From positions 1-43,601 of IMG/VR virus record IMGVR_UViG_3300045988_013455: a DNA stretch of 43,601 nt. One strand, written 5' to 3'. A program made the position numbers and the translations under genes. The stretch's first letter is position 1, and every line of letters starts with the position of its first letter. A model generated the notes under the pieces. That model was given only the letters and a program-made list of their open reading frames with translations. It was not told the DNA's origin and did no database searches. The DNA comes from a virus. Taxonomy: Duplodnaviria > Heunggongvirae > Uroviricota > Caudoviricetes. This document shows positions 1 to 43,601 of the stretch, piece after piece.

Positions 1-55
1 AGTCAGTAAGGTATTTGGTTTTATCCTTAAGCCAATTGCTAAGCTGTTTGGGCTG
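1..55. repeat. Terminal direct repeat, identical to 43547..43601 (circular-assembly overlap / genome junction)
   Basis: Exact 55-nt identity between the window start and end; the reading frame is continuous across the junction. Confidence 0.9.
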
Positions 56-2338: not shown

Positions 2339-4219
2339 ATGTCAAGCGGATGCGGTGACGTTTTAAGCCTGGCGGATTTACAGACCGCCAAGAAACACCA
2401 GATTTTTGAAGCCGAGGTTATCACGGGTAAATCCGGTGGTGTTGCTGGTGGAGCGGATATTGATTACGCAACAAATCAGGTTACTGGGCAGACACAGAAG
2501 ACGCTCCCCGCCGTGTTGCGTGATGCTGGTTTTCGGCCTGCATCTTTTGATTTTACTACGGGCGGCACATTGGGAGTTAATGACCGGGATTTGTCGGTCC
2601 TGTGGCCAACTGCTGGCGGGGGCGACGGTAATTATTATGCCTGGAAAGGTGTTTTACCTAAAACCATACCGTCGTCGTCTACCCCATTATCGACTGGAGG
2701 AATCTCCGACTCTGCGTGGAAACCTGTTACTGATAACACATTGAGAGAAGACCTTGCGTCCGCATCCGGCGCCACCATTGTTGGATTTCAGCAGGCTCCC
2801 TTCATAAACCGCACTGTCGGAGATTTTTTAACCGATTTTCCCACTAATAAATATTTTGGGGCAAAATGCGATGGTATTACAGACGATACTGCCGCGAACC
2901 AAACGGCATTAGATTGGTCCTCAAGCGAAAAAAGAGATGTTTTTTTTGTGGGCAATAGTTGTGTATCCAGTCGGCTGGTACACAAATCTGGTACAAAAGT
3001 TCGGCATCTTGGCACAATAGTGCCAAAAAATTTTACAGACCAGATGGTTATTGAAGTTAAAGATGATGCCTGGCGCACGCCATACAACGACGGTATTACG
3101 GCTATAGAAACTGGTAATAGAATTATTATAGACGGACTGCATATAGAACCCTCCGCCGCTGTGTCGGCACAAGGAATATATGGGACAGACGGAGTTGGTG
3201 TTGTTATAAATAACGCACGAATCTTTAACATGTCCAATGGCGGCGTAGAAATAGAAAAAGGTTATGAGTGGAAATTCAATAATTTATCAGTCGTAGCCCC
3301 AGAGGATCAACTTTCAACGGCTGCCGTTTCTGGAGTTAAGCACAGAACTTTTGACAGTATGTACTTAAATACTACTGTCGTTGGCTACCAAACAGGCATG
3401 GAAGTAACTAATGACGCTAATGATATCGTTAACACGCACGTATGGGGGCTTACTGGTACTAGAACCACACGGACTATGGCCTTTGGGTTAAAACTGTCAG
3501 GGAGTTCTAATAATATTTATGGTTTTTATGCAGATTCTCCGCATAAAATAGACGCATTACAACCCGCATCTGCCACTAACGGCGGCGTTGGCTATTTAAT
3601 TACAGGGTTTAATAATAATCTTACCGGCCCAAGAATTCTGTTTCATCCTGACGATGGCACGCTATACGGAAAGGCGTTTCTTATTTCTGGAACAGAAAAT
3701 AGCATAATTCAGCCGATTACTACTTCTTTCAGTGGTTTTGAAGTAGGTGGTGATTTTGTGTTTAGCGGTTCTGCGACGCCAACTAACAATATCGTATCCG
3801 GCGGTAATATGCAGGGGGTATACACCGCACCCCAAAACGCCGGTTTCGTACCGACCTTAAATATCCCATGCACATACACATCGCAGATATATCGTCATGA
3901 GTTAACTCTGAGGAATGTAGAAGGACGAATGACCTTAGTAGCTAATATAACTAGCAATGTTGGCTCTACCGCTCTGGCCGTACAAATGCCGTCATATCTA
4001 TCCGGGTTTAAGGGTACGGGGTTTGGGGCTTCAGTTATCGGGATGATTCAGCCATCAGTGAGGAGCGATACCAACCTGCTAGCTGTAGAACCGTATATTA
4101 ATGATGGTAAGGTTTATTTCAGATTAATATTCCGTTCTGGCCCGTCACGAGACGTGTTATTTAATGATGTTATTACCGGTTTAATATCTATTGATATAAG
4201 TTTTAGTGCCCAGTTATAA
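2339..4219 (+). CDS. Tailspike / tail fibre with right-handed beta-helix (pectate-lyase-like) domain; possible polysaccharide depolymerase
   Basis: 626-aa ORF with motif FGAKCDGITDDTAANQTALDW typical of pectate-lyase-fold tailspikes; sits after the J-like gene; strong RBS AAAGAGGA. Confidence 0.65.
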   Translation: MSSGCGDVLSLADLQTAKKHQIFEAEVITGKSGGVAGGADIDYATNQVTGQTQKTLPAVLRDAGFRPASFDFTTGGTLGVNDRDLSVLWPTAGGGDGNYYAWKGVLPKTIPSSSTPLSTGGISDSAWKPVTDNTLREDLASASGATIVGFQQAPFINRTVGDFLTDFPTNKYFGAKCDGITDDTAANQTALDWSSSEKRDVFFVGNSCVSSRLVHKSGTKVRHLGTIVPKNFTDQMVIEVKDDAWRTPYNDGITAIETGNRIIIDGLHIEPSAAVSAQGIYGTDGVGVVINNARIFNMSNGGVEIEKGYEWKFNNLSVVAPEDQLSTAAVSGVKHRTFDSMYLNTTVVGYQTGMEVTNDANDIVNTHVWGLTGTRTTRTMAFGLKLSGSSNNIYGFYADSPHKIDALQPASATNGGVGYLITGFNNNLTGPRILFHPDDGTLYGKAFLISGTENSIIQPITTSFSGFEVGGDFVFSGSATPTNNIVSGGNMQGVYTAPQNAGFVPTLNIPCTYTSQIYRHELTLRNVEGRMTLVANITSNVGSTALAVQMPSYLSGFKGTGFGASVIGMIQPSVRSDTNLLAVEPYINDGKVYFRLIFRSGPSRDVLFNDVITGLISIDISFSAQL

Positions 4220-12819: not shown

Positions 12820-12849
12820 ACTATAATAGCTAACTATTCATGTTGTCAA
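12820..12849 (-). promoter_or_regulatory. Sigma70-like promoter (TTGACA-18-TATAGT) for the 12788 gene
   Basis: Minus strand TTGACAacatgaatagttagctatTATAGT; leader contains AAACGAGAGGAG. Confidence 0.5.
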
Positions 12850-12913
12850 TGGGCTTTCCTAAAATAATTAATATGGTACTATTCACATATAAACTGACTA
12901 AGGAGTAACTGAC

Positions 12914-13129
12914 ATGCAACCATCTGAACTAGGCATCCGTGTAGAACAACGCCGCAAAGAACTCGGCCTCTCTCAGCGCCGTCTGGCGGTCCTGGCTGGC
13001 GTTTCCCAGGGCGCAATTAACCAGCTGGCACTTGGGGTAACTCAGGACGTCCGCCCGGCAACGCTGTTTAAACTGGCGGAAGTGCTGCAAGTAGACGCCA
13101 AGTGGCTGGCGTTCGGTGAAGGGGCTTAA
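12914..13129 (+). CDS. XRE-family (Cro/CI-type) helix-turn-helix transcriptional regulator
   Basis: RRKELGLSQRRLAVLAGVSQGAINQLALG is a typical HTH_3 signature; lone plus-strand gene with own terminator. Confidence 0.7.
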   Translation: MQPSELGIRVEQRRKELGLSQRRLAVLAGVSQGAINQLALGVTQDVRPATLFKLAEVLQVDAKWLAFGEGA

Positions 13130-16623: not shown

Positions 16624-16652
16624 TTGCACACCCCAACATAATAGGTTACTAT
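16624..16652 (+). promoter_or_regulatory. Rightward early promoter (TTGCAC-17-TACTAT) with conserved leader
   Basis: TTGCACaccccaacataataggtTACTATtcac then AAACGAGACAGAGGAG before the ATG at 16678. Confidence 0.55.
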
Positions 16653-16677: not shown

Positions 16678-16884
16678 GTGATGGTTATGTTTAAGAAAGG
16701 TCAGTTGGCGAAAACGAAACGCACCGGACAATATGTATTAGTGTTGCAGGACGAGAACGAGTATGACGAGGATAATCTGGTTGACGTATGGGGCCTGGTA
16801 AGAAAGAAACCCGGGTTCGCCTACCGGGATAATTTAACACTAATAGGCAACAATTTTAAATTAAAAGGGGTGAGATATGAGTAA
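16678..16884 (+). CDS. Hypothetical early protein (68 aa)
   Basis: RBS GAGGAG upstream; first gene after the rightward early promoter. Confidence 0.45.
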   Translation: MMVMFKKGQLAKTKRTGQYVLVLQDENEYDEDNLVDVWGLVRKKPGFAYRDNLTLIGNNFKLKGVRYE

Positions 16885-17080
16885 GTGGATTAAGTGTAGT
16901 GAGATGCTGCCGGGCAATGGGTATGCTGATAAGGAGTTCCTGGTGTATGAAACGTTGAATAACGCCGTTCAGCACGATTATTACATAGTTCCTGATGACG
17001 GAAGAAAGCCTTTCTGGAATCACTACGATAAGTACGTAACGCACTGGATGCCCTTACCTGAGCCACCGGCGCCGGTGTAA
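16877..17080 (+). CDS. DUF551-like phage protein (67 aa)
   Basis: MSKWIKCSEMLP ... THWMPLPEPP, the recalled DUF551 signature; paralog of 17570..17755. Confidence 0.55.
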   Translation: MSKWIKCSEMLPGNGYADKEFLVYETLNNAVQHDYYIVPDDGRKPFWNHYDKYVTHWMPLPEPPAPV

Positions 17081-17422: not shown

Positions 17423-17566
17423 ATGAGAGAAGCATTTGAACGGTGGGCCGCCGTCGAGGGTCTGCCGGTTAACAAGGGTTCAAAGAAAGAGTACCTGAAC
17501 GTTAAGACGCGTCTCGCGTGGCGGGCGTGGAAAGCTGGTGCGCAGGCTGTGATGAATACGAGGTGA
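17423..17566 (+). CDS. Small hypothetical protein (about 47 aa; not in ORF track)
   Basis: My own translation: MREAFERWAAVEGLPVNKGSKKEYLNVKTRLAWRAWKAGAQAVMNTR. Confidence 0.3.
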   Translation: MREAFERWAAVEGLPVNKGSKKEYLNVKTRLAWRAWKAGAQAVMNTR

Positions 17567-17569
17567 GCT

Positions 17570-17755
17570 ATGGGTGAGTGGATTAAGTGTAGTGAGCGGA
17601 TGCCGGAGCCTTATGAATACGTTCTTGTAACTGATTGTTTTGTTGGCTGTGAGGTTATGCGTGTTAATTCAGATGGCTACTGGGGGCCTGCAAAGAGTTT
17701 ATATCACGGTGATATAACGCACTGGATGCCGTTACCTGAGCCCCCGGAAGTGTGA
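17570..17755 (+). CDS. DUF551-like phage protein (61 aa), second copy
   Basis: MGEWIKCSERMP ... ITHWMPLPEPPEV. Confidence 0.55.
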   Translation: MGEWIKCSERMPEPYEYVLVTDCFVGCEVMRVNSDGYWGPAKSLYHGDITHWMPLPEPPEV

Positions 17756-24713: not shown

Positions 24714-26180
24714 ATGTTAACTATGAACGGTCAGAATCAGGGTGTTAAGACAAAACACCGGGAATGGCTGCATCACTTCGATAAATGGCAGAAGGTGCGC
24801 CACGCGCTGGAAGGTGACCTTATCCGCTATCTGCGCAACGTCGGGAAGAACGAGCCTGACCCTACCTACGCGGCACAGCGACAGGAAGAATATGAGAACG
24901 GCGCTATCTGCTACAACTTCACTAAACGTACCCTGGCTGGGATGGTGGGGTCGGTGATGCGCAAAGACCCAGAGCAGATTATCCCGCCTGAGATGGAATA
25001 TCTGCTACGTAATGCTGACGGTTCCGGTGTCGGGCTGTGGCAGCACGCGCAGGACACGCTGATGGAGATTGACTCGGTAGGTCGTGGCGGGTTGCTGGTG
25101 GATGCCCCGGAGACGGCTGCGGCAACCGCAGCCGAACAGAACGCGGGATTATTAAACCCGGTCATCGCATTCTATACCGCAGAGAACATCATCAACTGGC
25201 GACTGACTCGTGTCGGTTCAGTGAACCGCGTGATGATGGTTGTATTGCGTGAGGTATGGGAATACTCAGAACCGGGCGCAGAGTTCGAAACAAAGTTCGG
25301 TGAGCAATACCGCGTTCTCGATTTGATTGATGGTCGCTACCGCCAGCGCATTTACCGCTTCGATGCCGAAGGTGGTGCGCAGGGTGAAGTAAAAGAAATC
25401 TTCCCGGAACTTGGCAAACAGTTGCGTGGTAAAATCCCGTTCACTTTCATTGGGGCGAGCAACAACGACGCAACCATTGACGACGCGCCTTTGCTGCCGT
25501 TGGCTGAGCTTAATATCGGGCATTTCCGCAACAGCGCAGACAATGAGGAGTCCAGCTTCGTTGTAGGCCAGCCCACTCTGTTCATTGCTCCTGGCGAGAA
25601 CATGAGCATGGAACAGTGGGCAGAAGCCAACCCACACGGCGTGCGCATGGGGTCGCGTTCAGGTCACAACATTGGCTACGGCGGCAATGCGTTTCTGGTT
25701 CAGGCTGGGGAGAACAACCTCGCCAGACAGAACATGCTGGATAAAGAGAATCAGGCTATCCAGATTGGTGCGCAGCTTATCACCCCGACGCAGCAAATCA
25801 CCGCCGAATCGGCCCGCCTGCAACGTGGCGCGGATACGTCCGTTATGGCCACAATCGCACGTAACGTAAGCACGGCGTATACCGATGCGTTGCGCTGGGT
25901 AGCTGCGATGCTTGGGCTTAGTGAAGGCACAGAGATTGAGTTCAAACTGAACATGGAGTTCTTCCTGCAACCGATGACCGCTCAGGACCGCGCTCAGTGG
26001 ATGACAGACATTAACGCAGGTTTGCTACCCGCCACTGCTTACTATGCCGCGTTGCGTAAGGCTGGTGTAACCGACTGGACAGACGAGGATATTCAGAACG
26101 CTATTGAGGACGCGCCGCTGCCGTTAGGTGCAAATACTCAGGTAGCGGGGGAGATTCCGCCGTCGGCGCAGCAGGAGTAA
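24714..26180 (+). CDS. Portal protein
   Basis: 488-aa ORF immediately after terL with strong RBS; typical size and position. Confidence 0.75.
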   Translation: MLTMNGQNQGVKTKHREWLHHFDKWQKVRHALEGDLIRYLRNVGKNEPDPTYAAQRQEEYENGAICYNFTKRTLAGMVGSVMRKDPEQIIPPEMEYLLRNADGSGVGLWQHAQDTLMEIDSVGRGGLLVDAPETAAATAAEQNAGLLNPVIAFYTAENIINWRLTRVGSVNRVMMVVLREVWEYSEPGAEFETKFGEQYRVLDLIDGRYRQRIYRFDAEGGAQGEVKEIFPELGKQLRGKIPFTFIGASNNDATIDDAPLLPLAELNIGHFRNSADNEESSFVVGQPTLFIAPGENMSMEQWAEANPHGVRMGSRSGHNIGYGGNAFLVQAGENNLARQNMLDKENQAIQIGAQLITPTQQITAESARLQRGADTSVMATIARNVSTAYTDALRWVAAMLGLSEGTEIEFKLNMEFFLQPMTAQDRAQWMTDINAGLLPATAYYAALRKAGVTDWTDEDIQNAIEDAPLPLGANTQVAGEIPPSAQQE

Positions 26181-26210
26181 AGAAAAAGGCCCCTTACGGG
26201 GCCTTAACTT
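26181..26210. terminator. Bidirectional rho-independent terminator
   Basis: AAGGCCCC-ttac-GGGGCCTT flanked by A-run and T-rich sequence. Confidence 0.7.
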
Positions 26211-26502
26211 TCCAGACTTCTCGAAGCGCTACGAGTTTATGATTACCAATATCTCTTGATATTATTGAGTCAGTAAAACCATTGAACCACGATTTCATCC
26301 AGTCAGACGTTCTGAAATCAGCGTACAGAATATGTATCGTTTGCGGAGCGTCGACGTCGTAATGTTGGCACACATAAACGCATCCGCTGGCGAATATAAT
26401 AGCTTTAAACGTATCGTAATCTTCTGAATCCGGGAACTCGCTAGAATCCCCGACAAGATATCTGTACGCGTATTTTTTAGTAGTCTTCTTTCTTTTCCGC
26501 AT
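26194..26502 (-). CDS. Hypothetical protein (102 aa), antisense cassette A
   Basis: Third gene of a leftward cassette inside the late operon. Confidence 0.45.
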   Translation of the reverse strand: MRKRKKTTKKYAYRYLVGDSSEFPDSEDYDTFKAIIFASGCVYVCQHYDVDAPQTIHILYADFRTSDWMKSWFNGFTDSIISRDIGNHKLVALREVWKVKAP

Positions 26503-26511
26503 GGTGATTTC

Positions 26512-26742
26512 TCAGAAGTGTATTACTGGTTGTTTAAACTTCCAGTCACAATCTACCTGTTTAATCACACCTTTCGCAACAAGACTGTCTATAAATTCCG
26601 GACCTGAATTTGTCTTGTACCATGTGTATCTGTTCCCAACTTTTACGCCCGGAAGGCTGTGGTACACAACGCCATCAACCACCATAAAAGATACGCCGAT
26701 AGCCCCTTTTTCTGCATAGAGTTTTTTAGTCCCACCGCTCAT
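26512..26742 (-). CDS. Hypothetical protein (76 aa), antisense cassette A
   Basis: Second gene of the leftward cassette. Confidence 0.45.
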   Translation of the reverse strand: MSGGTKKLYAEKGAIGVSFMVVDGVVYHSLPGVKVGNRYTWYKTNSGPEFIDSLVAKGVIKQVDCDWKFKQPVIHF

Positions 26743-26779
26743 AGTACACCCAGATTAAATAATTATTAATATAAGGCCC

Positions 26780-26965
26780 TTAGGCCTTACGAATTGTATA
26801 TTCATACCCGAGGTAGCCGTTTTTCTCTTGCATAGCGGAGGCACGCAGCAGAGCAGCATTCTCACCTTTAACTACAGCGACCACATAATCCGTAGAGTCT
26901 GGGCCATTTTCCACAACTTCATACGCCTGTAAGTTCTTGGTGGTAAGTTCATATGTGTTAGTCAT
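26780..26965 (-). CDS. Hypothetical protein (61 aa), antisense cassette A
   Basis: First gene after promoter; conserved leader AAACGAGAGATAAGGAA before ATG. Confidence 0.45.
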   Translation of the reverse strand: MTNTYELTTKNLQAYEVVENGPDSTDYVVAVVKGENAALLRASAMQEKNGYLGYEYTIRKA

Positions 26966-26998
26966 TTCTAAATTCCTTATCTCTCGTTTCGATAAGTG

Positions 26999-27027
26999 AA
27001 TAGTACCCTATTATATTGGTGTCTGCA
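26999..27027 (-). promoter_or_regulatory. Sigma70-like promoter (TTGCAG-17-TACTAT) driving antisense cassette A
   Basis: Minus strand TTGCAGacaccaatataatagggTACTATtcac then conserved leader. Confidence 0.55.
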
Positions 27028-27072
27028 AATATTATTTTTATGCGTTACACTGTCAATACTACAGGAGGGCCT

Positions 27073-28116
27073 ATGAGCTTACTTACATCACTAATCAGCC
27101 ACCAGATATGGCTGCAACGCACCGCTTCCGGTGAAGTGAAAGACCTCGCGCCGTTCATTCAGGAGATGCGGGACGAAATCAAACGGCAGGTTCTGCTATT
27201 CGGCGACGACGGTCGTAGCACAGCGCGACTGAATAAACTGTTACGCGACCTCGAAGAAGCACTGGCGGGACTTACTGGTGACTGGCATACAAAGCTGACC
27301 GAAGACCTTAAGGAGCTGGCGGCGTATGAGGCTGAGTGGAATACAAAGACACTGACAGCTAACGTTAACGCGGAATTTGTTACGCCTACCGCTGAACAGG
27401 TGTGGGCCGCTGCGGAGTTTCAACCCTTATCATTGAATGACAAGCCGGTCGATTTCACCAAGCTGATGGATGACTGGGGTGAAACAGAAGTCGCGCGCCT
27501 TGTAACGGGCGTTAAGATGGGATTTGTGCAAGGCCAGACGACACGGCAGATTGTTAAGAATGTTGTTGGTGCTGGGGGCCTTGCGGACATCTCTGAGCGT
27601 AACGCTGCGACGGTAATCCGCACCGCGCTGTCCCACGTATCCAACGAAGCCCGTAACGAAACGTACCGTCAGAACGACGACATCATCAAGAAATACGAAT
27701 GGGTGTCAACGCTGGACAGCCGTACCAGTACGATTTGCAGAGCCAGGGACGGGATGACGTGGGAAATCGGTAAAGGTCCGATGCCCCCAGCCCATCCGAA
27801 TTGCAGAAGCACCACGGCCCCGGTAATCAGTTCGGAGTTCGACTTCCTCAATAAAGGCGCAAAACGCGCGGCTAAGGGCGCGGACGGAGGTACTCAGGTA
27901 AGCGCAGACACCACCTATTACGAGTTCCTTAAACAACAACCGGCGTGGTTTATTGATGAGGCTCTTGGACCTGTTCGCGGTAAGATTTTCCGTAACAGCG
28001 GTATATCGCCGGAAGAGTTTCGCGTAATATCTGTAGATGGTTTCGGGAATCCGCTCACGCTTAAGCAGATGGCGGAACTCGATAAACGTGTTGCTGATTA
28101 TCTGAAAGGGGAATAA
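27073..28116 (+). CDS. Head morphogenesis protein (Mu gpF / SPP1 gp7 family minor capsid protein)
   Basis: WVSTLDSRTSTICRARDG...PMPPAHPNCRSTTAPV matches the Phage_Mu_F signature; ATG at 27073 after AGGAGGG (track ORF from 27016). Confidence 0.75.
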   Translation: MSLLTSLISHQIWLQRTASGEVKDLAPFIQEMRDEIKRQVLLFGDDGRSTARLNKLLRDLEEALAGLTGDWHTKLTEDLKELAAYEAEWNTKTLTANVNAEFVTPTAEQVWAAAEFQPLSLNDKPVDFTKLMDDWGETEVARLVTGVKMGFVQGQTTRQIVKNVVGAGGLADISERNAATVIRTALSHVSNEARNETYRQNDDIIKKYEWVSTLDSRTSTICRARDGMTWEIGKGPMPPAHPNCRSTTAPVISSEFDFLNKGAKRAAKGADGGTQVSADTTYYEFLKQQPAWFIDEALGPVRGKIFRNSGISPEEFRVISVDGFGNPLTLKQMAELDKRVADYLKGE

Positions 28117-28577: not shown

Positions 28578-28610
28578 TAAAAGGCCCCGTTATGGGGCCT
28601 TAGTTTTATT
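28578..28610. terminator. Bidirectional rho-independent terminator
   Basis: AGGCCCC-gttat-GGGGCCT followed by TAGTTTTATT; A-rich on the other side. Confidence 0.7.
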
Positions 28611-28818
28611 CATGTGTCGCTGCTCTAAAATTAAGTTCTTCACGAGGGATAAACCCCCTATCAGTTTTTACATAACAAGTTGTGTAACTATACATTACCT
28701 CTCTGCCCGTGATATCTCCGTAGTTCTCACACCCGTGTTCATCTAAGCTACGTACACCGGCAGCAATTACCAGTGAAAATGCCAATGTCATCAATACCGA
28801 GATAATTAATTCTTTCAT
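28606..28818 (-). CDS. Small secreted/periplasmic protein (70 aa), antisense cassette B
   Basis: N-terminal signal-like MKELIISVLMTLAFSLVIAAG, two Cys in the mature part; own promoter and terminator. Confidence 0.5.
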   Translation of the reverse strand: MKELIISVLMTLAFSLVIAAGVRSLDEHGCENYGDITGREVMYSYTTCYVKTDRGFIPREELNFRAATHE

Positions 28819-28853
28819 CTTTAAGTTCCTTATCTCTCGTTTCGATGCAATGA

Positions 28854-28882
28854 ATAGTACCCTATTATATTGGTGCCTGCAA
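28854..28882 (-). promoter_or_regulatory. Sigma70-like promoter (TTGCAG-17-TACTAT) driving antisense cassette B
   Basis: Minus strand TTGCAGgcaccaatataatagggTACTATtcat then AAACGAGAGATAAGGAA. Confidence 0.55.
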
Positions 28883-28933
28883 ACTATTTAGCTATGTATT
28901 CCAGTTATTCCCTCAATTGTAAATGTTGGAATA

Positions 28934-36303: not shown

Positions 36304-36493
36304 TGTTAACTCTCTTAAATCTGGCTATGCCTGACTCGTTAATGTTGCCTATTTCAAAGAAGCTGCGATATTTAGGCGAATACATTCTTACGTCGCCATT
36401 CTCCAGGGTGATCCCTTCATATATGGCCCCTACTTCGAATCCATTTTTCTCCGCGTACGGGCTCACATCGGTGCATTCATACATATCTTTCAT
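36293..36493 (-). CDS. Hypothetical protein (66 aa), antisense cassette C
   Basis: ATGA overlap with the upstream phosphoesterase gene. Confidence 0.45.
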   Translation of the reverse strand: MKDMYECTDVSPYAEKNGFEVGAIYEGITLENGDVRMYSPKYRSFFEIGNINESGIARFKRVNSDK

Positions 36494-37620
36494 CCAAGCA
36501 TCTCCGGTGAAATAGTTAAACGTGCTACCTCGCCATATTCGGCGCTATAAGTGATTACATTCGCACTACGGCCCGACATCCAACCCCCGCGGGAGGCGTA
36601 GGCGTCTTTAGCCGCTAAGGTGCGGTGTTGCTCAACAATCATGTTACGGCTTTCCACAATCTTCTGATGGTGCAGATGGCCTACGTGGGCGTAACTGTAA
36701 ACACTCTCGCCGAACGCTTTACGGAACTTGGCGATCATAACCGGTTCGATAGCGTCGAATCGTGCTTTATGCCCGTGTGTAAAGAACAACGTCGTTTTGC
36801 CGTGTTGCACCATCTTGTAAACATCCGGCGACGTATCGACGAACACACGCGGCTCATTGCCATACAGCGTACTGAACATCTCAGCCAACCAAATCATGCC
36901 ACTCTCGTCGTGGTTACCTTGCACAATAAGCAAGCGAACAGTTTTATGCTTAACCAGCGCCATATCGACAACACGGCGGACCATGCGAATCATGTAGCGG
37001 ACAAGTTTCTGGTAGCGGGTATCGGCGTCAAGAACGTGACCACTTGCGGGTGTAACCGCGTCCAGACTATCGAAGTGCGCAAGGTCGCCCAGCAGGTTAA
37101 TAACTCCTGTTCCCGCGTCCGGTGATTTCTGAAACGCTGCGTCGAACCAGCGAGAGAACAGGTCTTCTGCAATCTTCATATCCCAGTCGTCGCCGCTCTC
37201 GTCAGCCCATGCCAGCATACCGAGATGGAAATCAGATACAGTGTAAAGATTAAGTAGCTTGTCGTCGCGTTTGGCACGTGCCGCTTTAACAGGCGCAACC
37301 GGGGTAATCTCTGACTTCATGCCTTCGATTACGGCTTTCATCAATTCAACCTGACGTTCGGCGTCAGTATCGGTCTTAACCCATTGCAACTTAGTGTTGC
37401 CGAACTCATCGACAAGTGACGACGTTCCTTTAATCTTGTAGCCGTCCGGAACAAGGTGACTAACGTCACGCCCGTGGCCTACGCCTTTCTTAGCCAGCTT
37501 CGCTTTACGGATACGAATAACGCGGTCTGAGATGCCGTATTTACGGGCGATGTCGATATTCTTCATACCGGCGTTCAATTCTTCCTGCAACTGTTCGTCG
37601 GTTATTTTCTTCTGGGCCAT
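36490..37620 (-). CDS. HTH domain fused to calcineurin-like metallophosphoesterase (SbcD/Mre11-like motif set)
   Basis: N-terminal HTH-like NIDIARKYGISDRVIRIRK; motifs VSDFHLG, LLGDLAHFD, VQGNHDE, FTHGH, HVGHLHH in canonical order. Confidence 0.6.
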   Translation of the reverse strand: MAQKKITDEQLQEELNAGMKNIDIARKYGISDRVIRIRKAKLAKKGVGHGRDVSHLVPDGYKIKGTSSLVDEFGNTKLQWVKTDTDAERQVELMKAVIEGMKSEITPVAPVKAARAKRDDKLLNLYTVSDFHLGMLAWADESGDDWDMKIAEDLFSRWFDAAFQKSPDAGTGVINLLGDLAHFDSLDAVTPASGHVLDADTRYQKLVRYMIRMVRRVVDMALVKHKTVRLLIVQGNHDESGMIWLAEMFSTLYGNEPRVFVDTSPDVYKMVQHGKTTLFFTHGHKARFDAIEPVMIAKFRKAFGESVYSYAHVGHLHHQKIVESRNMIVEQHRTLAAKDAYASRGGWMSGRSANVITYSAEYGEVARLTISPEMLG

Positions 37621-37657
37621 GCTTATTCCTCGTGCTTAGGATTTGTCCTATACTAGC

Positions 37658-37864
37658 TCACTTCTCGTTAACATTCGAGTTGCACGCCCAGATTAAAATA
37701 AAGACCCACGGCAACAGAATCCAACCAAGAAACAGATTGGCCATGAATATCGCCAACTTCGCTTTATGGTCACGGAAATACGCAACCAGAAAAGGTGCGA
37801 AATAGGCGAGTAGTGCAAACAGAATTAAGGAAACTGGTAAACTGGACATTTTAAACTCCTTCAT
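37658..37864 (-). CDS. Small two-TMD membrane protein (68 aa), antisense cassette C
   Basis: SLPVSLILFALLAYFAPFLVAYF and IFMANLFLGWILLPWVFILIWA; first gene after promoter. Confidence 0.5.
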   Translation of the reverse strand: MKEFKMSSLPVSLILFALLAYFAPFLVAYFRDHKAKLAIFMANLFLGWILLPWVFILIWACNSNVNEK

Positions 37865-37879
37865 TGTTGGCGTGAGTGA

Positions 37880-37908
37880 ATAGTACCCTATTATATTGGG
37901 GCGCGCAA
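37880..37908 (-). promoter_or_regulatory. Sigma70-like promoter (TTGCGC-17-TACTAT) driving antisense cassette C
   Basis: Minus strand TTGCGCgccccaatataatagggTACTATtcac, same module as at 26999 and 28854. Confidence 0.5.
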
Positions 37909-38015
37909 GTAGTGTGCTAGAATAAGTTTGCGCCTAGTGTCGCACACGAAAAGCGGGTGGTTCCCGTCTGGCGCATTAACCTTAACCTGTAACCTCTTAA
38001 CCAAAGGATTAAAGA

Positions 38016-43385: not shown

Positions 43386-43601
43386 ATGGAGTTTGTCGTT
43401 AACCGTATCCCGGACGGCGTTCCGGTACGCGTCTATCTTGGCGAGATTGGTGATGATACAGACGTAACGGACGACTTCGATGCGCTTAAAGACGAAGACG
43501 CCGTGTACCATATTATCGAGGGTGCGGGTAGCGGGGCGCTCGGTGTAGTCAGTAAGGTATTTGGTTTTATCCTTAAGCCAATTGCTAAGCTGTTTGGGCT
43601 G
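43386..43601 (+). CDS. 5' part of the gpI/gpJ-like tail-tip gene (continues in frame at position 1; start ATG 43380 or 43386)
   Basis: DAVYHIIEGAGSGALGVVSKVFGFIL resembles the C-terminal segment of lambda gpI; no stop before the window end. Confidence 0.6.
   Translation, partial: MEFVVNRIPDGVPVRVYLGEIGDDTDVTDDFDALKDEDAVYHIIEGAGSGALGVVSKVFGFILKPIAKLFGL
43547..43601. repeat. Terminal direct repeat, identical to 1..55
   Basis: Exact 55-nt identity with the window start. Confidence 0.9.

What the first reader, a model, noticed from the sequence alone, without database searches (positions are those of the whole stretch)
26181..27030. Antisense cassette A: three small genes between portal and head-morphogenesis genes
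Genes of 61, 76 and 102 aa are transcribed leftward from a TTGCAG-17-TACTAT promoter with the conserved leader and end at a bidirectional terminator right after the portal gene. This is a moron-like insertion in the packaging/head operon; the proteins have no features I recognise.
Basis: seen in the sequence. Interest (0 to 1): 0.5.

Follow-up and report, generated by a model that had tools for sequence, protein, structure and literature searches.

The report
Swappable three-gene accessory cassette in phage
Three small genes of unknown function sit backwards between a phage's portal and head-assembly genes as a self-contained promoter-to-terminator unit that related phages lack, replace with other cargo (including DNA-modification genes), or carry at a second site; this is a fairly ordinary "moron"-type accessory insert, but it has unusually clear swap boundaries.

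Summary
ORFs of 61, 76 and 102 aa lie on the minus strand between the portal and Mu-F head genes of a Kagunavirus-like genome. An exact TTGCAG-17-TACTAT promoter lies upstream and a GC hairpin with a T-tract lies downstream.

All three are real genes (dN/dS 0.02-0.23 against four other copies). The insert is 42% GC in a 51% GC genome. Most relatives (about 24 of 72 surveyed) have an 88-bp empty junction here.

Other relatives carry different minus-strand cargo behind the same invariant promoter box and the same terminator type. That cargo includes two kinds of DNA methyltransferase, a DpdA-like plus YhhQ-like pair, and many orphan ORFs. The identical trio sits at a second site in two genomes. 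Homology between copies starts at the -35 and ends in the terminator stem.

This is a moron-type cassette exchanged by recombination at conserved promoter and terminator sequences, like the PeSL elements of T4-type phages.

The protein functions remain unknown. o102 is nearly an orphan. o61 has a generic small α/β fold. Counter-defence or host-takeover roles are inferred only from location. Early expression is not shown, and the terminator looks leftward-only rather than bidirectional.

The parts
26997..27029 (-). Conserved promoter box. The -35 TTGCAG is at 27028..27023 and the -10 TACTAT at 27005..27000. An internal exact TATAAT and an imperfect palindrome ATAaTAgggTAcTAT lie in the spacer.
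   Evidence: Exact pattern match. A 33-nt repeat family also occurs at 28851-28883 and 37877-37909. The 16-nt core is identical in most of 58 copies in relatives and drives many different cargoes. It was reported as a PHIRE repeat, tgAATAGTa-ccTATTat-T, in phage fBC-Eco01 (PMC9825357).
26966..26999 (-). Leader (TCACTTATCGAAACGAGAGATAAGGAATTTAGAA) carrying the Shine-Dalgarno AAGGA for the 61-aa gene.
   Evidence: 91% identical to the site B leader (family D3), and the same leader precedes the trio in all other copies. A possible 5' hairpin (dG -6.1, z -2.1) is broken in other copies of the same trio, so it is not a conserved structure.
26780..26965 (-). Gene o61: a 61-aa acidic soluble protein (pI 4.9) of family phrog_16707, with the invariant motif EVVENGPDxTDYVVA.
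26771..26790 (-). Internal hairpin overlapping the o61 stop codon, followed by a weak U-rich run. It is probably a vestigial or partial terminator marking a former cassette end.
   Evidence: dG -12.4, 8-bp stem. Conserved in 4 of 5 aligned copies and lost through an 8-nt deletion in phiWAO78-1.
26512..26742 (-). Gene o76: a 76-aa basic soluble protein (pI 9.3).
   Evidence: dN/dS 0.08-0.23. 8 clusters at >=89% identity. 35-40% identical homologues in the Drexlerviridae phage IME542 and in coliphages BEK2, BEK3 and TH30. Deleted in Salmonella phage pink.
26194..26502 (-). Gene o102: a 102-aa protein with a basic N-terminal tail (MRKRKKTTKK) and a conserved core at about residues 13-94. Its stop codon lies inside the terminator hairpin.
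   Evidence: dN/dS 0.02-0.06 at dS up to 1.4. Near-orphan: only 3 clusters >=93% identical among 5.8 billion proteins. Among 1.84 billion representatives, only its own cluster plus one 33%-identical 136-aa relative, P0049. AF2 failed with pLDDT 37.
26177..26205 (-). Intrinsic terminator for the leftward transcript: stem AAGGCCCC/GGGGCCTT followed by a T-tract that overlaps the portal stop codon.
   Evidence: Terminator scan and fold at dG -19.3. The same terminator type follows nearly all cargoes in relatives. In four unrelated cargoes the stop codon starts the loop, giving the C-termini KAP or KPL.
24714..26180 (+). Portal gene, the left conserved flank of the hotspot.
   Evidence: DUF4055 at E=6.5e-24 and phrog_145 at E=3.8e-149.
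27073..28116 (+). Mu-F-like head-morphogenesis gene, the right conserved flank of the hotspot.
   Evidence: PF04233 and phrog_241 at E=1.2e-154.

Best explanation
The region is a self-contained, horizontally exchangeable accessory transcription unit, a 'moron' in Hendrix's sense. It is docked in reverse orientation in a hypervariable slot of the rightward packaging/head operon of a Kagunavirus-like lytic siphophage.

How it is built and read:
- A sigma-70-type promoter sits inside an almost invariant ~30-nt phage-specific box.
- It fires leftward through a short leader and three independently evolving small genes (o61, o76, o102).
- The transcript stops at a GC-rich hairpin/T-tract terminator abutting the portal stop codon.

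How it moves:
- The promoter box and the terminator hairpin are repeated at several places in every genome of this group.
- They therefore act as homology anchors for recombination.
- As a result, cargo is gained, lost, replaced and moved between at least two docking sites (portal|Mu-F, and downstream of the 153-aa Ig-like gene) and between phages.
- This is analogous to the PeSL promoter/stem-loop shuffling of T4-type phages.

What it does:
- The three proteins are soluble, non-structural and dispensable.
- Most likely each acts separately on the host cell, in counter-defence or host takeover. The same slots in relatives hold DNA methyltransferases, a DpdA-like/YhhQ-like 7-deazaguanine module and a T4 Imm-type superinfection-immunity gene.

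Shown: the genes are real and under purifying selection; presence/absence/replacement polymorphism; breakpoints at the promoter box and the terminator; the same trio at two sites.

Inferred: promoter and terminator activity; recombination as the exchange mechanism; the conflict-related function; the timing of expression.

The confidence of 0.55 is for the whole statement. The architecture and exchange part alone is about 0.85, and the counter-defence/host-takeover function alone about 0.35-0.4.
For: - Real genes: dN/dS 0.02-0.23.
- Slot polymorphism: the portal to Mu-F gap is 12-1480 bp in 72 loci, and the modal state is an 88-bp empty junction.
- Alternative cargo behind the same box: N6_N4 methyltransferase, D12 Dam methyltransferase, Vut_1/YhhQ-like transporter plus a phrog_887 tRNA-guanine-transglycosylase-like protein, a 173-aa clamp-like protein and many orphans.
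- Breakpoints: homology between cassette copies begins at the -35 and ends in the terminator stem. Identity to L008 drops from 75-97% to 22-47% exactly between the terminator and the box. Unrelated cargoes share terminator-encoded C-termini.
- Mobility: the intact trio is at site B in L008 and L088, with a methyltransferase at site A. Five cargo types occur at both sites.
- Foreign composition: 41.9% GC against 50.6%.
- Independent modules: o61 occurs alone in unrelated phages, again antisense in a packaging module near a methyltransferase. In Serratia prophages it lies directly after the CI repressor. o76 occurs alone in the Drexlerviridae phage IME542 and other coliphages. Phage pink lacks o76.
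- Conflict theme: the third box-driven unit of this genome starts with an Imm_superinfect gene. 7-deazaguanine modification confers restriction-modification (RM) resistance, and Kagunavirus phages are highly RM-sensitive (PMC11990801).
- Precedent: PeSL papers PMC2839356 and PMC4122927.
Against: - No functional evidence exists for any of the three proteins: no Pfam, PADLOC or PDB sequence hits. The o61 fold match is generic. The o102 model is unusable.
- Guilt by location is weak, because the slots also hold cargo with no obvious conflict role (clamp-like 173-aa protein, amidase-like/KilA-N 217-aa protein).
- Promoter and terminator activities are only sequence predictions.
- The one published time course, on phage K1B4, which carries this cassette, does not report the cassette's class in its text. 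It places another gene behind the same box (K1B4_045) in the latest-peaking class, so 'early' is unsupported.
- Two copies have frame-shifting indels in the A-rich 5' end of o102, and the cassette is rare (3 phages among 379 matching records). Both fit marginal selective value.
Confidence: 0.55

Rival explanations
1. The trio serves phage-versus-phage competition, through superinfection exclusion or interference with co-infecting phages, rather than countering host defences.
For: - Another unit behind the same box in this genome begins with a T4 Imm-type superinfection-immunity protein (PF14373, E=2e-12).
- The site B unit encodes a small membrane-anchored protein.
- Such genes are typical moron cargo (own knowledge).
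Against: - The three proteins have no transmembrane segment or signal peptide (max 19-residue hydropathy 0.9-1.4), whereas Imm/Sp-type exclusion factors act at the envelope.
- There are no PADLOC matches.
- The slot mates most often identifiable are DNA-modification genes.
Confidence: 0.18
2. The cassette is a nearly neutral or selfish passenger. It persists because the promoter/terminator repeats make it easy to acquire, it gives the phage little benefit, and it is already decaying in some lineages.
For: - Rare: o102 is in 3 phages among 379 matching phage records and 1 of 69 IMG/VR loci.
- o76 is deleted in pink.
- Frameshifts at the o102 5' end in phiWAO78-1 and pink, and hairpin loss in phiWAO78-1.
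- The empty site is the commonest state.
Against: - Strong purifying selection on all three genes, even between copies with dS 0.7-1.4.
- The trio is kept intact and collinear in 10 independent contigs at two different sites.
- The frameshifts fall in homopolymer-rich sequence and may be sequencing errors. They spare the core shared with the distant homologue P0049.
Confidence: 0.12
3. The proteins are accessory head-assembly or virion components, since they lie inside the packaging/head module.
For: Location between the portal and Mu-F genes. The basic tail of o102 could bind DNA.
Against: - Opposite strand with its own promoter.
- Absent from most relatives that share 95-97% identical portal and head genes.
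- The same trio is functional-looking at another site.
- o61 and o76 homologues sit in non-structural regions of unrelated phages and prophages.
- Low GC.
Confidence: 0.04
4. The element matters as an antisense or convergent transcription device that modulates portal or head-gene expression, and the ORFs are incidental.
For: - Leftward transcription converges on the portal gene and diverges from the head gene.
- Occupied sites carry a different, stronger ribosome-binding site (AGGAGG) for the head gene than empty sites.
Against: - Codon-position-specific conservation shows selection on the proteins.
- The terminator stops the transcript before it enters the portal coding sequence.
- Cargo identity varies freely while the flanks stay the same.
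Confidence: 0.03

Closest known systems
Morons of lambdoid phages (the HK97/HK022/lambda late-operon inserts defined by Juhala, Hendrix and colleagues, 2000; own knowledge)
   Same: - Extra gene(s) between two conserved genes of a late operon.
- Absent from close relatives.
- Flanked by their own promoter and intrinsic terminator.
- Deviant base composition.
- Dispensable cargo often linked to host or phage conflict.
   Different: - The host here is a virulent phage, so there is no expression from a prophage.
- The insert is inverted relative to the operon.
- The promoter is not idiosyncratic but one member of a phage-wide, almost invariant box family.
- The unit holds three genes and is found at two alternative docking sites.
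PeSL (promoter-early stem-loop) regulatory cassettes of T4-type myoviruses (Arbiol et al. 2010, PMC2839356; Comeau et al. 2014, PMC4122927)
   Same: [quoted passage not shown]
- Indels and replacements between close relatives end in these motifs, implying homologous recombination between them.
   Different: - PeSLs are contiguous terminator-then-promoter composites between tandem early genes in large myovirus genomes. Here the promoter and terminator lie at opposite ends of an inverted unit embedded in the structural operon of a 43.5-kb siphovirus.
- No sequence relationship.
- Promoter and terminator activity and mini-circle formation were shown for PeSLs but are untested here.
Accessory-gene / anti-defence hotspots of phage genomes (for example the diversity hotspots in 10.1101/2024.10.15.618418 and the phage accessory-gene screens in 10.1101/2023.04.06.535777, listed)
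   Same: A fixed genomic position between conserved core genes holds fast-turnover small genes, including DNA-modification genes that counter restriction.
   Different: - No member of this trio matches any characterised anti-defence protein.
- The association rests on location only.
- No reference to this Guernseyvirinae hotspot was found in the searched literature.
ClpS N-degron adaptor fold (for o61 only)
   Different: - The score is modest for a generic small α/β fold.
- There is no sequence similarity (no Pfam or PDB sequence hit).
- o61 has 61 residues, against about 85-106 for ClpS.

Membership tests
Moron (independent transcription unit inserted in a phage operon) | Gene(s) present between two adjacent conserved genes in some phages and absent in close relatives | tested here: met
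   The gap is 896 bp here, against a modal 88 bp in about 24 relatives with 82-97% identical portal proteins.
Moron (independent transcription unit inserted in a phage operon) | Own promoter upstream and intrinsic terminator downstream | tested here: inconclusive
   The sequence features are present and conserved. Activity is not measurable with these tools, and the K1B4 RNA-seq text does not report it.
Moron (independent transcription unit inserted in a phage operon) | Base composition differing from the surrounding genome | tested here: met
   41.9% GC against 50.6% for the genome and 53-55% for the flanking genes.
Moron (independent transcription unit inserted in a phage operon) | Expressed from the repressed prophage (the classical lambdoid case) | tested here: not met
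   The element sits in a Kagunavirus-type phage. Kagunavirus fBC-Eco01 is described as lacking integrase and lysogeny genes (PMC9825357). There is no cassette DNA in 5,426 complete E. coli genomes. This feature is not applicable rather than contradictory.
PeSL-type mobile regulatory cassettes | Multiple copies per genome of a conserved sigma-70-like promoter associated with stem-loop terminators | tested here: met
   Box copies at 12868, 16638 and 17917 (+) and at 27014, 28868 and 37894 (-). Terminator family at 4216, 9420, 26180, 28576 and 36041.
PeSL-type mobile regulatory cassettes | Promoter and stem-loop form one contiguous composite motif | tested here: not met
   Here they lie at opposite ends of the cargo, 27029 against 26186.
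PeSL-type mobile regulatory cassettes | Indel and replacement end points between relatives coincide with the motifs | tested here: met
PeSL-type mobile regulatory cassettes | Demonstrated promoter and terminator function, and excised mini-circles | not testable with these tools
   Needs reporter assays and PCR on phage DNA.
Anti-defence (counter-defence) proteins | Sequence or fold membership in a characterised anti-defence family | tested here: not met
   No Pfam, PHROG-function or PDB match. Fold hits are generic or uncharacterised. No dedicated anti-defence HMM library was available.
Anti-defence (counter-defence) proteins | Co-location with known counter-defence genes in the same variable slot | tested here: met
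   Methyltransferases and a DpdA-like/YhhQ-like pair occupy the same slot in relatives. o61 homologues lie next to methylases in two unrelated phages.
Anti-defence (counter-defence) proteins | Inhibition of a defence system | not testable with these tools
   Needs plating assays.
ClpS (PF02617) for o61 | Significant sequence match to the family, or conserved N-degron pocket | tested here: not met

The most novel reading that the evidence does not exclude
Guernseyvirinae phages run a PeSL-like 'plug-and-play' cassette system. A fixed ~30-nt promoter/operator box and a fixed GC-hairpin terminator act as recombination anchors, letting any cargo hop between at least two or three docking sites inside the structural operon and between phages. 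The 61-76-102 trio would then be three previously unknown counter-defence or host-takeover effectors. One of them, o102, has essentially no relatives among 1.84 billion representative proteins and many conserved polar residues, which hints at an enzyme or a specific binder.
Probability: 0.3. Interest if true: 0.6.

Novelty: new member of a known kind. Interest (0 to 1): 0.38.

Why it matters
Kagunavirus phages are candidate therapeutic and synthetic-biology chassis, and they are reported to be highly sensitive to restriction-modification (PMC11990801). Three consequences follow:
- The defined promoter-box and terminator boundaries give natural "landing pads" for engineering payloads.
- The variable cargo list is a ready-made shortlist for discovering anti-defence or exclusion genes.
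- The 76- and 102-aa genes are missing from the annotated GenBank relatives that carry them, and o61 is truncated in the published RNA-seq annotation. Existing data sets have therefore not quantified them.

If the trio turns out to be ordinary dispensable cargo, the finding remains a tidy example of a known phenomenon.

Tried and rejected
- **5' leader hairpin as an mRNA stabiliser:** the window's leader folds (dG -6.1, z -2.1). Other copies of the same trio and the site B leader carry variants that abolish the pairing without compensation. Rejected.
- **o102 structure:** the AF2 model had pLDDT 37 and is unusable.
- **AFDB50 fold search:** unavailable.
- **Sequence searches against known families:** the PDB, PADLOC and Pfam searches all gave nothing significant.
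- **Origin of the cassette:** no match in complete E. coli genomes or in plasmids.
- **Literature:** peptide-motif searches and Kagunavirus, Guernseyvirinae and accessory-gene papers gave nothing on these genes or this hotspot.
- **K1B4 RNA-seq paper:** the phage is the same as OQ696342, but the text gives no temporal class for the only annotated cassette gene. Its classes look unconventional (DNA polymerase 'late', capsid 'middle'), so it settles nothing.
- **Rightward promoter for the head gene inside the occupied-site flank:** none was convincing (and by inspection).

Full report
**What the window is.** The window is a complete circularly assembled phage genome: bases 1-55 repeat at 43547-43601. 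By DNA similarity it belongs with Kagunavirus/Guernseyvirinae siphophages. The best match over 25500-27700 is 90.8% to Escherichia phage vB_EcoS-K1_SXAU_B4.

**Observation.**
- Three minus-strand ORFs lie at 26194-26502 (102 aa), 26512-26742 (76 aa) and 26780-26965 (61 aa).
- They sit between the portal gene (24714-26180; DUF4055, phrog_145) and the Mu-F-like head-morphogenesis gene (27073-28116).
- The promoter TTGCAG-17-TACTAT is an exact match at 27028..27000 on the minus strand.
- The hexamers alone are not above chance (6 hits at <=2 mismatches against 3.1 expected).
- The surrounding 33-nt box recurs at 28883 (97%) and 37909 (85%), and the leader recurs at site B (91%).
- Related boxes head plus-strand small-gene clusters at 16638 and 17917, and a variant at 12868 precedes an HTH_3 gene.
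- A hairpin at 26186-26205 followed by TTTTTCTTT terminates the leftward unit.
- On the plus strand the same hairpin is followed by TTAACTTTCC and is not called by the scan. I read it as leftward-specific rather than bidirectional, which fits its position inside a rightward operon that must read through it.

**Are the ORFs genes?** Yes.
- I aligned the unit with copies from phiWAO78-1 (L001), SXAU_B4 (L003), Salmonella phage pink (L004) and an IMG/VR contig (L008).
- Substitutions fall mainly at third codon positions of the minus-strand frames. dN/dS is 0.08-0.14 for o61, 0.08-0.23 for o76 and 0.02-0.06 for o102, with dS up to 1.4.
- The 76- and 102-aa genes are not annotated in phiWAO78-1 or pink.
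- In the published K1B4 annotation only a 5'-truncated o61 is called (K1B4_027, same stop codon and frame).

**Is it an insertion?**
- In 72 loci carrying a related portal gene, the portal to Mu-F gap ranges from 12 to 1480 bp.
- The commonest state, in about 24 loci, is an 88-bp junction with a different small hairpin and a different ribosome-binding site for the head gene.
- Occupied junctions share the right flank (box, then about 45 bp up to an AGGAGG site for the head gene) and a left terminator. The cargo between them differs.
- Cargo seen at this site:
  - an N6_N4 DNA methyltransferase (L008, L088);
  - a D12 Dam-type methyltransferase (L060);
  - a Vut_1/YhhQ-like transporter with a phrog_887 queuine-tRNA-ribosyltransferase-like (DpdA-like) protein (L009);
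  - a 173-aa clamp-like protein (phrog_3007);
  - a 217-aa protein (phrog_6095 'amidase', with a weak KilA-N match);
  - many orphan small ORFs, almost all on the minus strand.
- The insert is 41.9% GC, against 50.6% for the genome and 53-55% for its neighbours.

**Boundaries and mobility.**
- Similarity among cassette copies begins at the -35 hexamer and ends in the terminator stem. This includes L008, where the flanks are unrelated because the trio sits at another site.
- Against L008 at site A, identity is 75-97% up to the terminator, 22-47% across the cargo, and 92-100% from the box onward.
- Nearly every cargo ends at the same terminator type, AAGGCCCC-N4-GGGGCCTTTT.
- In o102, the L008 methyltransferase, the L009 DpdA-like protein and a 59-aa ORF, the stop codon is the first triplet of the loop. 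These unrelated proteins therefore end in stem-encoded KAP or KPL.
- The 61-aa gene ends in its own smaller hairpin (26771-26790, dG -12.4). It looks like a former cassette end retained inside the present three-gene unit.
- The intact 61-76-102 trio recurs in ten independent sequences. It is usually at site A, but in L008 and L088 it lies downstream of the 153-aa Ig-like gene (site B), with a methyltransferase at site A.
- Five cargo types occur at site A in some genomes and site B in others: the trio, the methyltransferase, the 173-aa protein, a 94-aa protein and a roughly 58-aa protein. All sit behind the same box, whose 16-nt core is identical in most of 58 copies.
- Together these points indicate exchange by homologous recombination at the repeated promoter box and terminator. 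That step is inferred, not observed.

**The proteins.**
- **o61** (pI 4.9) belongs to phrog_16707 (unknown function) and has an invariant EVVENGPDxTDYVVA motif.
  - It occurs in unrelated phages. In Klebsiella phage VLCpiS13e it is again an antisense insert, between terminase and portal, near a methyltransferase. In Cronobacter ESP2949-1 it lies next to a DNA methylase.
  - A 48%-identical relative lies directly after a CI-type repressor in Serratia prophages. By analogy with λ, this is the first-gene position of the leftward early operon (the analogy is my inference).
- **o76** (pI 9.3) has close relatives only in this phage group. It has 35-40% identical homologues in the Drexlerviridae phage IME542 and in coliphages BEK2, BEK3 and TH30; in IME542 the homologue lies among small genes of unknown function. 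It is deleted in pink.
- **o102** (pI 8.9) is close to an orphan.
  - It has three clusters at >=93% identity among 5.8 billion proteins.
  - In an exhaustive HMMER scan of 1.84 billion representatives it has only its own cluster plus one 136-aa relative. That relative is 33% identical over residues 13-94 and shares the GDSSEFP, C-x-H-x2-VD-x-PQ and RDIG motifs. It sits on a phage-like contig of small genes.
  - The basic N-terminal tail is absent from that relative. It lies in an A-rich stretch that carries frame-shifting indels in phiWAO78-1 (+2 nt) and pink (+1 nt).
  - Its AF2 model failed (pLDDT 37).
- None of the three has a transmembrane segment, a PADLOC match or a PDB sequence match.
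- The cassette DNA is absent from 5,426 complete E. coli genomes, and o102 is absent from plasmids.

**Function.**
- The specific activities are unknown.
- The best-supported category is dispensable accessory proteins acting in host or phage conflict. The evidence is shared slots with DNA-modification genes, the Imm_superinfect gene at the head of the third box-driven unit in this genome, and the different phylogenetic distributions of the three genes, which argue for separate activities rather than one obligate complex.
- I rate the architectural explanation at about 0.85 and the counter-defence/host-takeover assignment at about 0.35-0.4.
- Timing is open. The box looks like a host-polymerase promoter and heads small-gene clusters. 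However, the only time course (K1B4, the same phage as OQ696342 by its 44,581-bp length) does not state the cassette's class, and it puts another gene behind the same box in its latest-peaking class.
- The complete conservation of the promoter spacer, with its imperfect palindrome, suggests an overlapping operator, perhaps for the phage HTH protein. This is speculative.

**Comparison with known systems.**
- The unit meets the sequence-level definition of a moron: insertion polymorphism, its own promoter and terminator, and deviant composition. It differs in sitting in a virulent phage, being inverted, and using a phage-wide promoter family.
- The exchange pattern matches the PeSL concept of T4-type phages (PMC2839356, PMC4122927). 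Here, though, the promoter and stem-loop are at opposite ends of the cargo rather than forming one composite motif, and no functional or mini-circle evidence exists.
- The box itself has been noticed before as a PHIRE repeat in phage fBC-Eco01, where it was attributed to a phage RNA polymerase (PMC9825357).
- I found no description of this hotspot or of these proteins.

**Verdict.** This is a real, well-delimited but fairly ordinary accessory cassette, a new member of a known kind. Its value lies in its clean modular boundaries, in three unannotated or mis-annotated genes, and in a near-orphan protein worth testing.

Noticed in passing
window 28606-28883 (-): A second antisense cassette (site B) sits after the 153-aa Ig-like gene. 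The same box and a 91%-identical leader drive a 70-aa protein with an N-terminal hydrophobic anchor (phrog_26710, unknown function). In relatives this site holds the 173-aa clamp-like gene, methyltransferases, the 61-76-102 trio and others.
   Followed up: partly
window 36490-37909 (-): A third box-driven leftward unit (site C). Its first gene (37658-37864, 68 aa) is a T4 Imm-type superinfection-immunity protein (PF14373, E=2e-12). A 376-aa protein with a below-cutoff Metallophos_2 match (E=4.9e-05, 23.8 bits against a 27-bit cut-off) follows. The K1B4 paper classes the homologue K1B4_045 as a late gene.
   Followed up: partly
window 12823-13129 (+), 16638 (+), 17917 (+): Variants of the same promoter box precede a 71-aa HTH_3 protein (12914-13129) and the plus-strand small-gene clusters. 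The box spacer is almost invariant and contains an imperfect palindrome (ATAaTAgggTAcTAT). It may double as an operator for a phage regulator.
   Followed up: no
window 16869-16913 / 17562-17606 and 17037-17069 / 17715-17747: Two pairs of 87-94% identical direct repeats about 690 bp apart suggest a tandem duplication of small genes just downstream of the 16638 and 17917 boxes.
   Followed up: no
window 1-55 and 43547-43601: An exact 55-nt terminal repeat shows the window is a circular assembly with overlap. The true length is 43,546 bp.
   Followed up: yes
L084 7299-8657 and L086 3446-4804: In two metagenomic relatives that carry the trio, a 452-aa antisense gene (faint DUF723/DUF4379 hits) is inserted between the terminase and portal genes. 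This points to a further variable slot in the packaging module. In L084 the adjacent portal gene call is shortened to 361 aa.
   Followed up: no
L001 about 3640-3710 and L004 about 2470-2550 (5' end of the o102 homologues): Frame-shifting indels (+2 nt in phiWAO78-1, +1 nt in pink) lie in the A-rich run that encodes the basic N-terminal tail of o102, while the rest of the gene stays under strong purifying selection. Possible causes are homopolymer sequencing errors, alternative starts (pink keeps an open 118-aa frame from an upstream GTG) or slippage.
   Followed up: partly
window 27030-27072, compared with empty-site relatives (for example L005 2197-2265): Genomes with an occupied site A have a different upstream region and a strong AGGAGG ribosome-binding site for the head-morphogenesis gene. 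Empty-site genomes have a weaker site preceded by a plus-strand hairpin with a T-tract. Cassette occupancy may therefore alter head-gene expression.
   Followed up: no
L002 3371-3892 (fBC-Eco01 gp04c) and homologues: The commonest alternative cargo is a 173-aa protein annotated variously as 'DNA polymerase III sliding clamp' or 'RusA-like resolvase'. It matches phrog_3007 well, but matches Pfam DNA_pol3_beta_2 only at E=0.006, below the cut-off. The published clamp annotation looks over-confident.
   Followed up: partly
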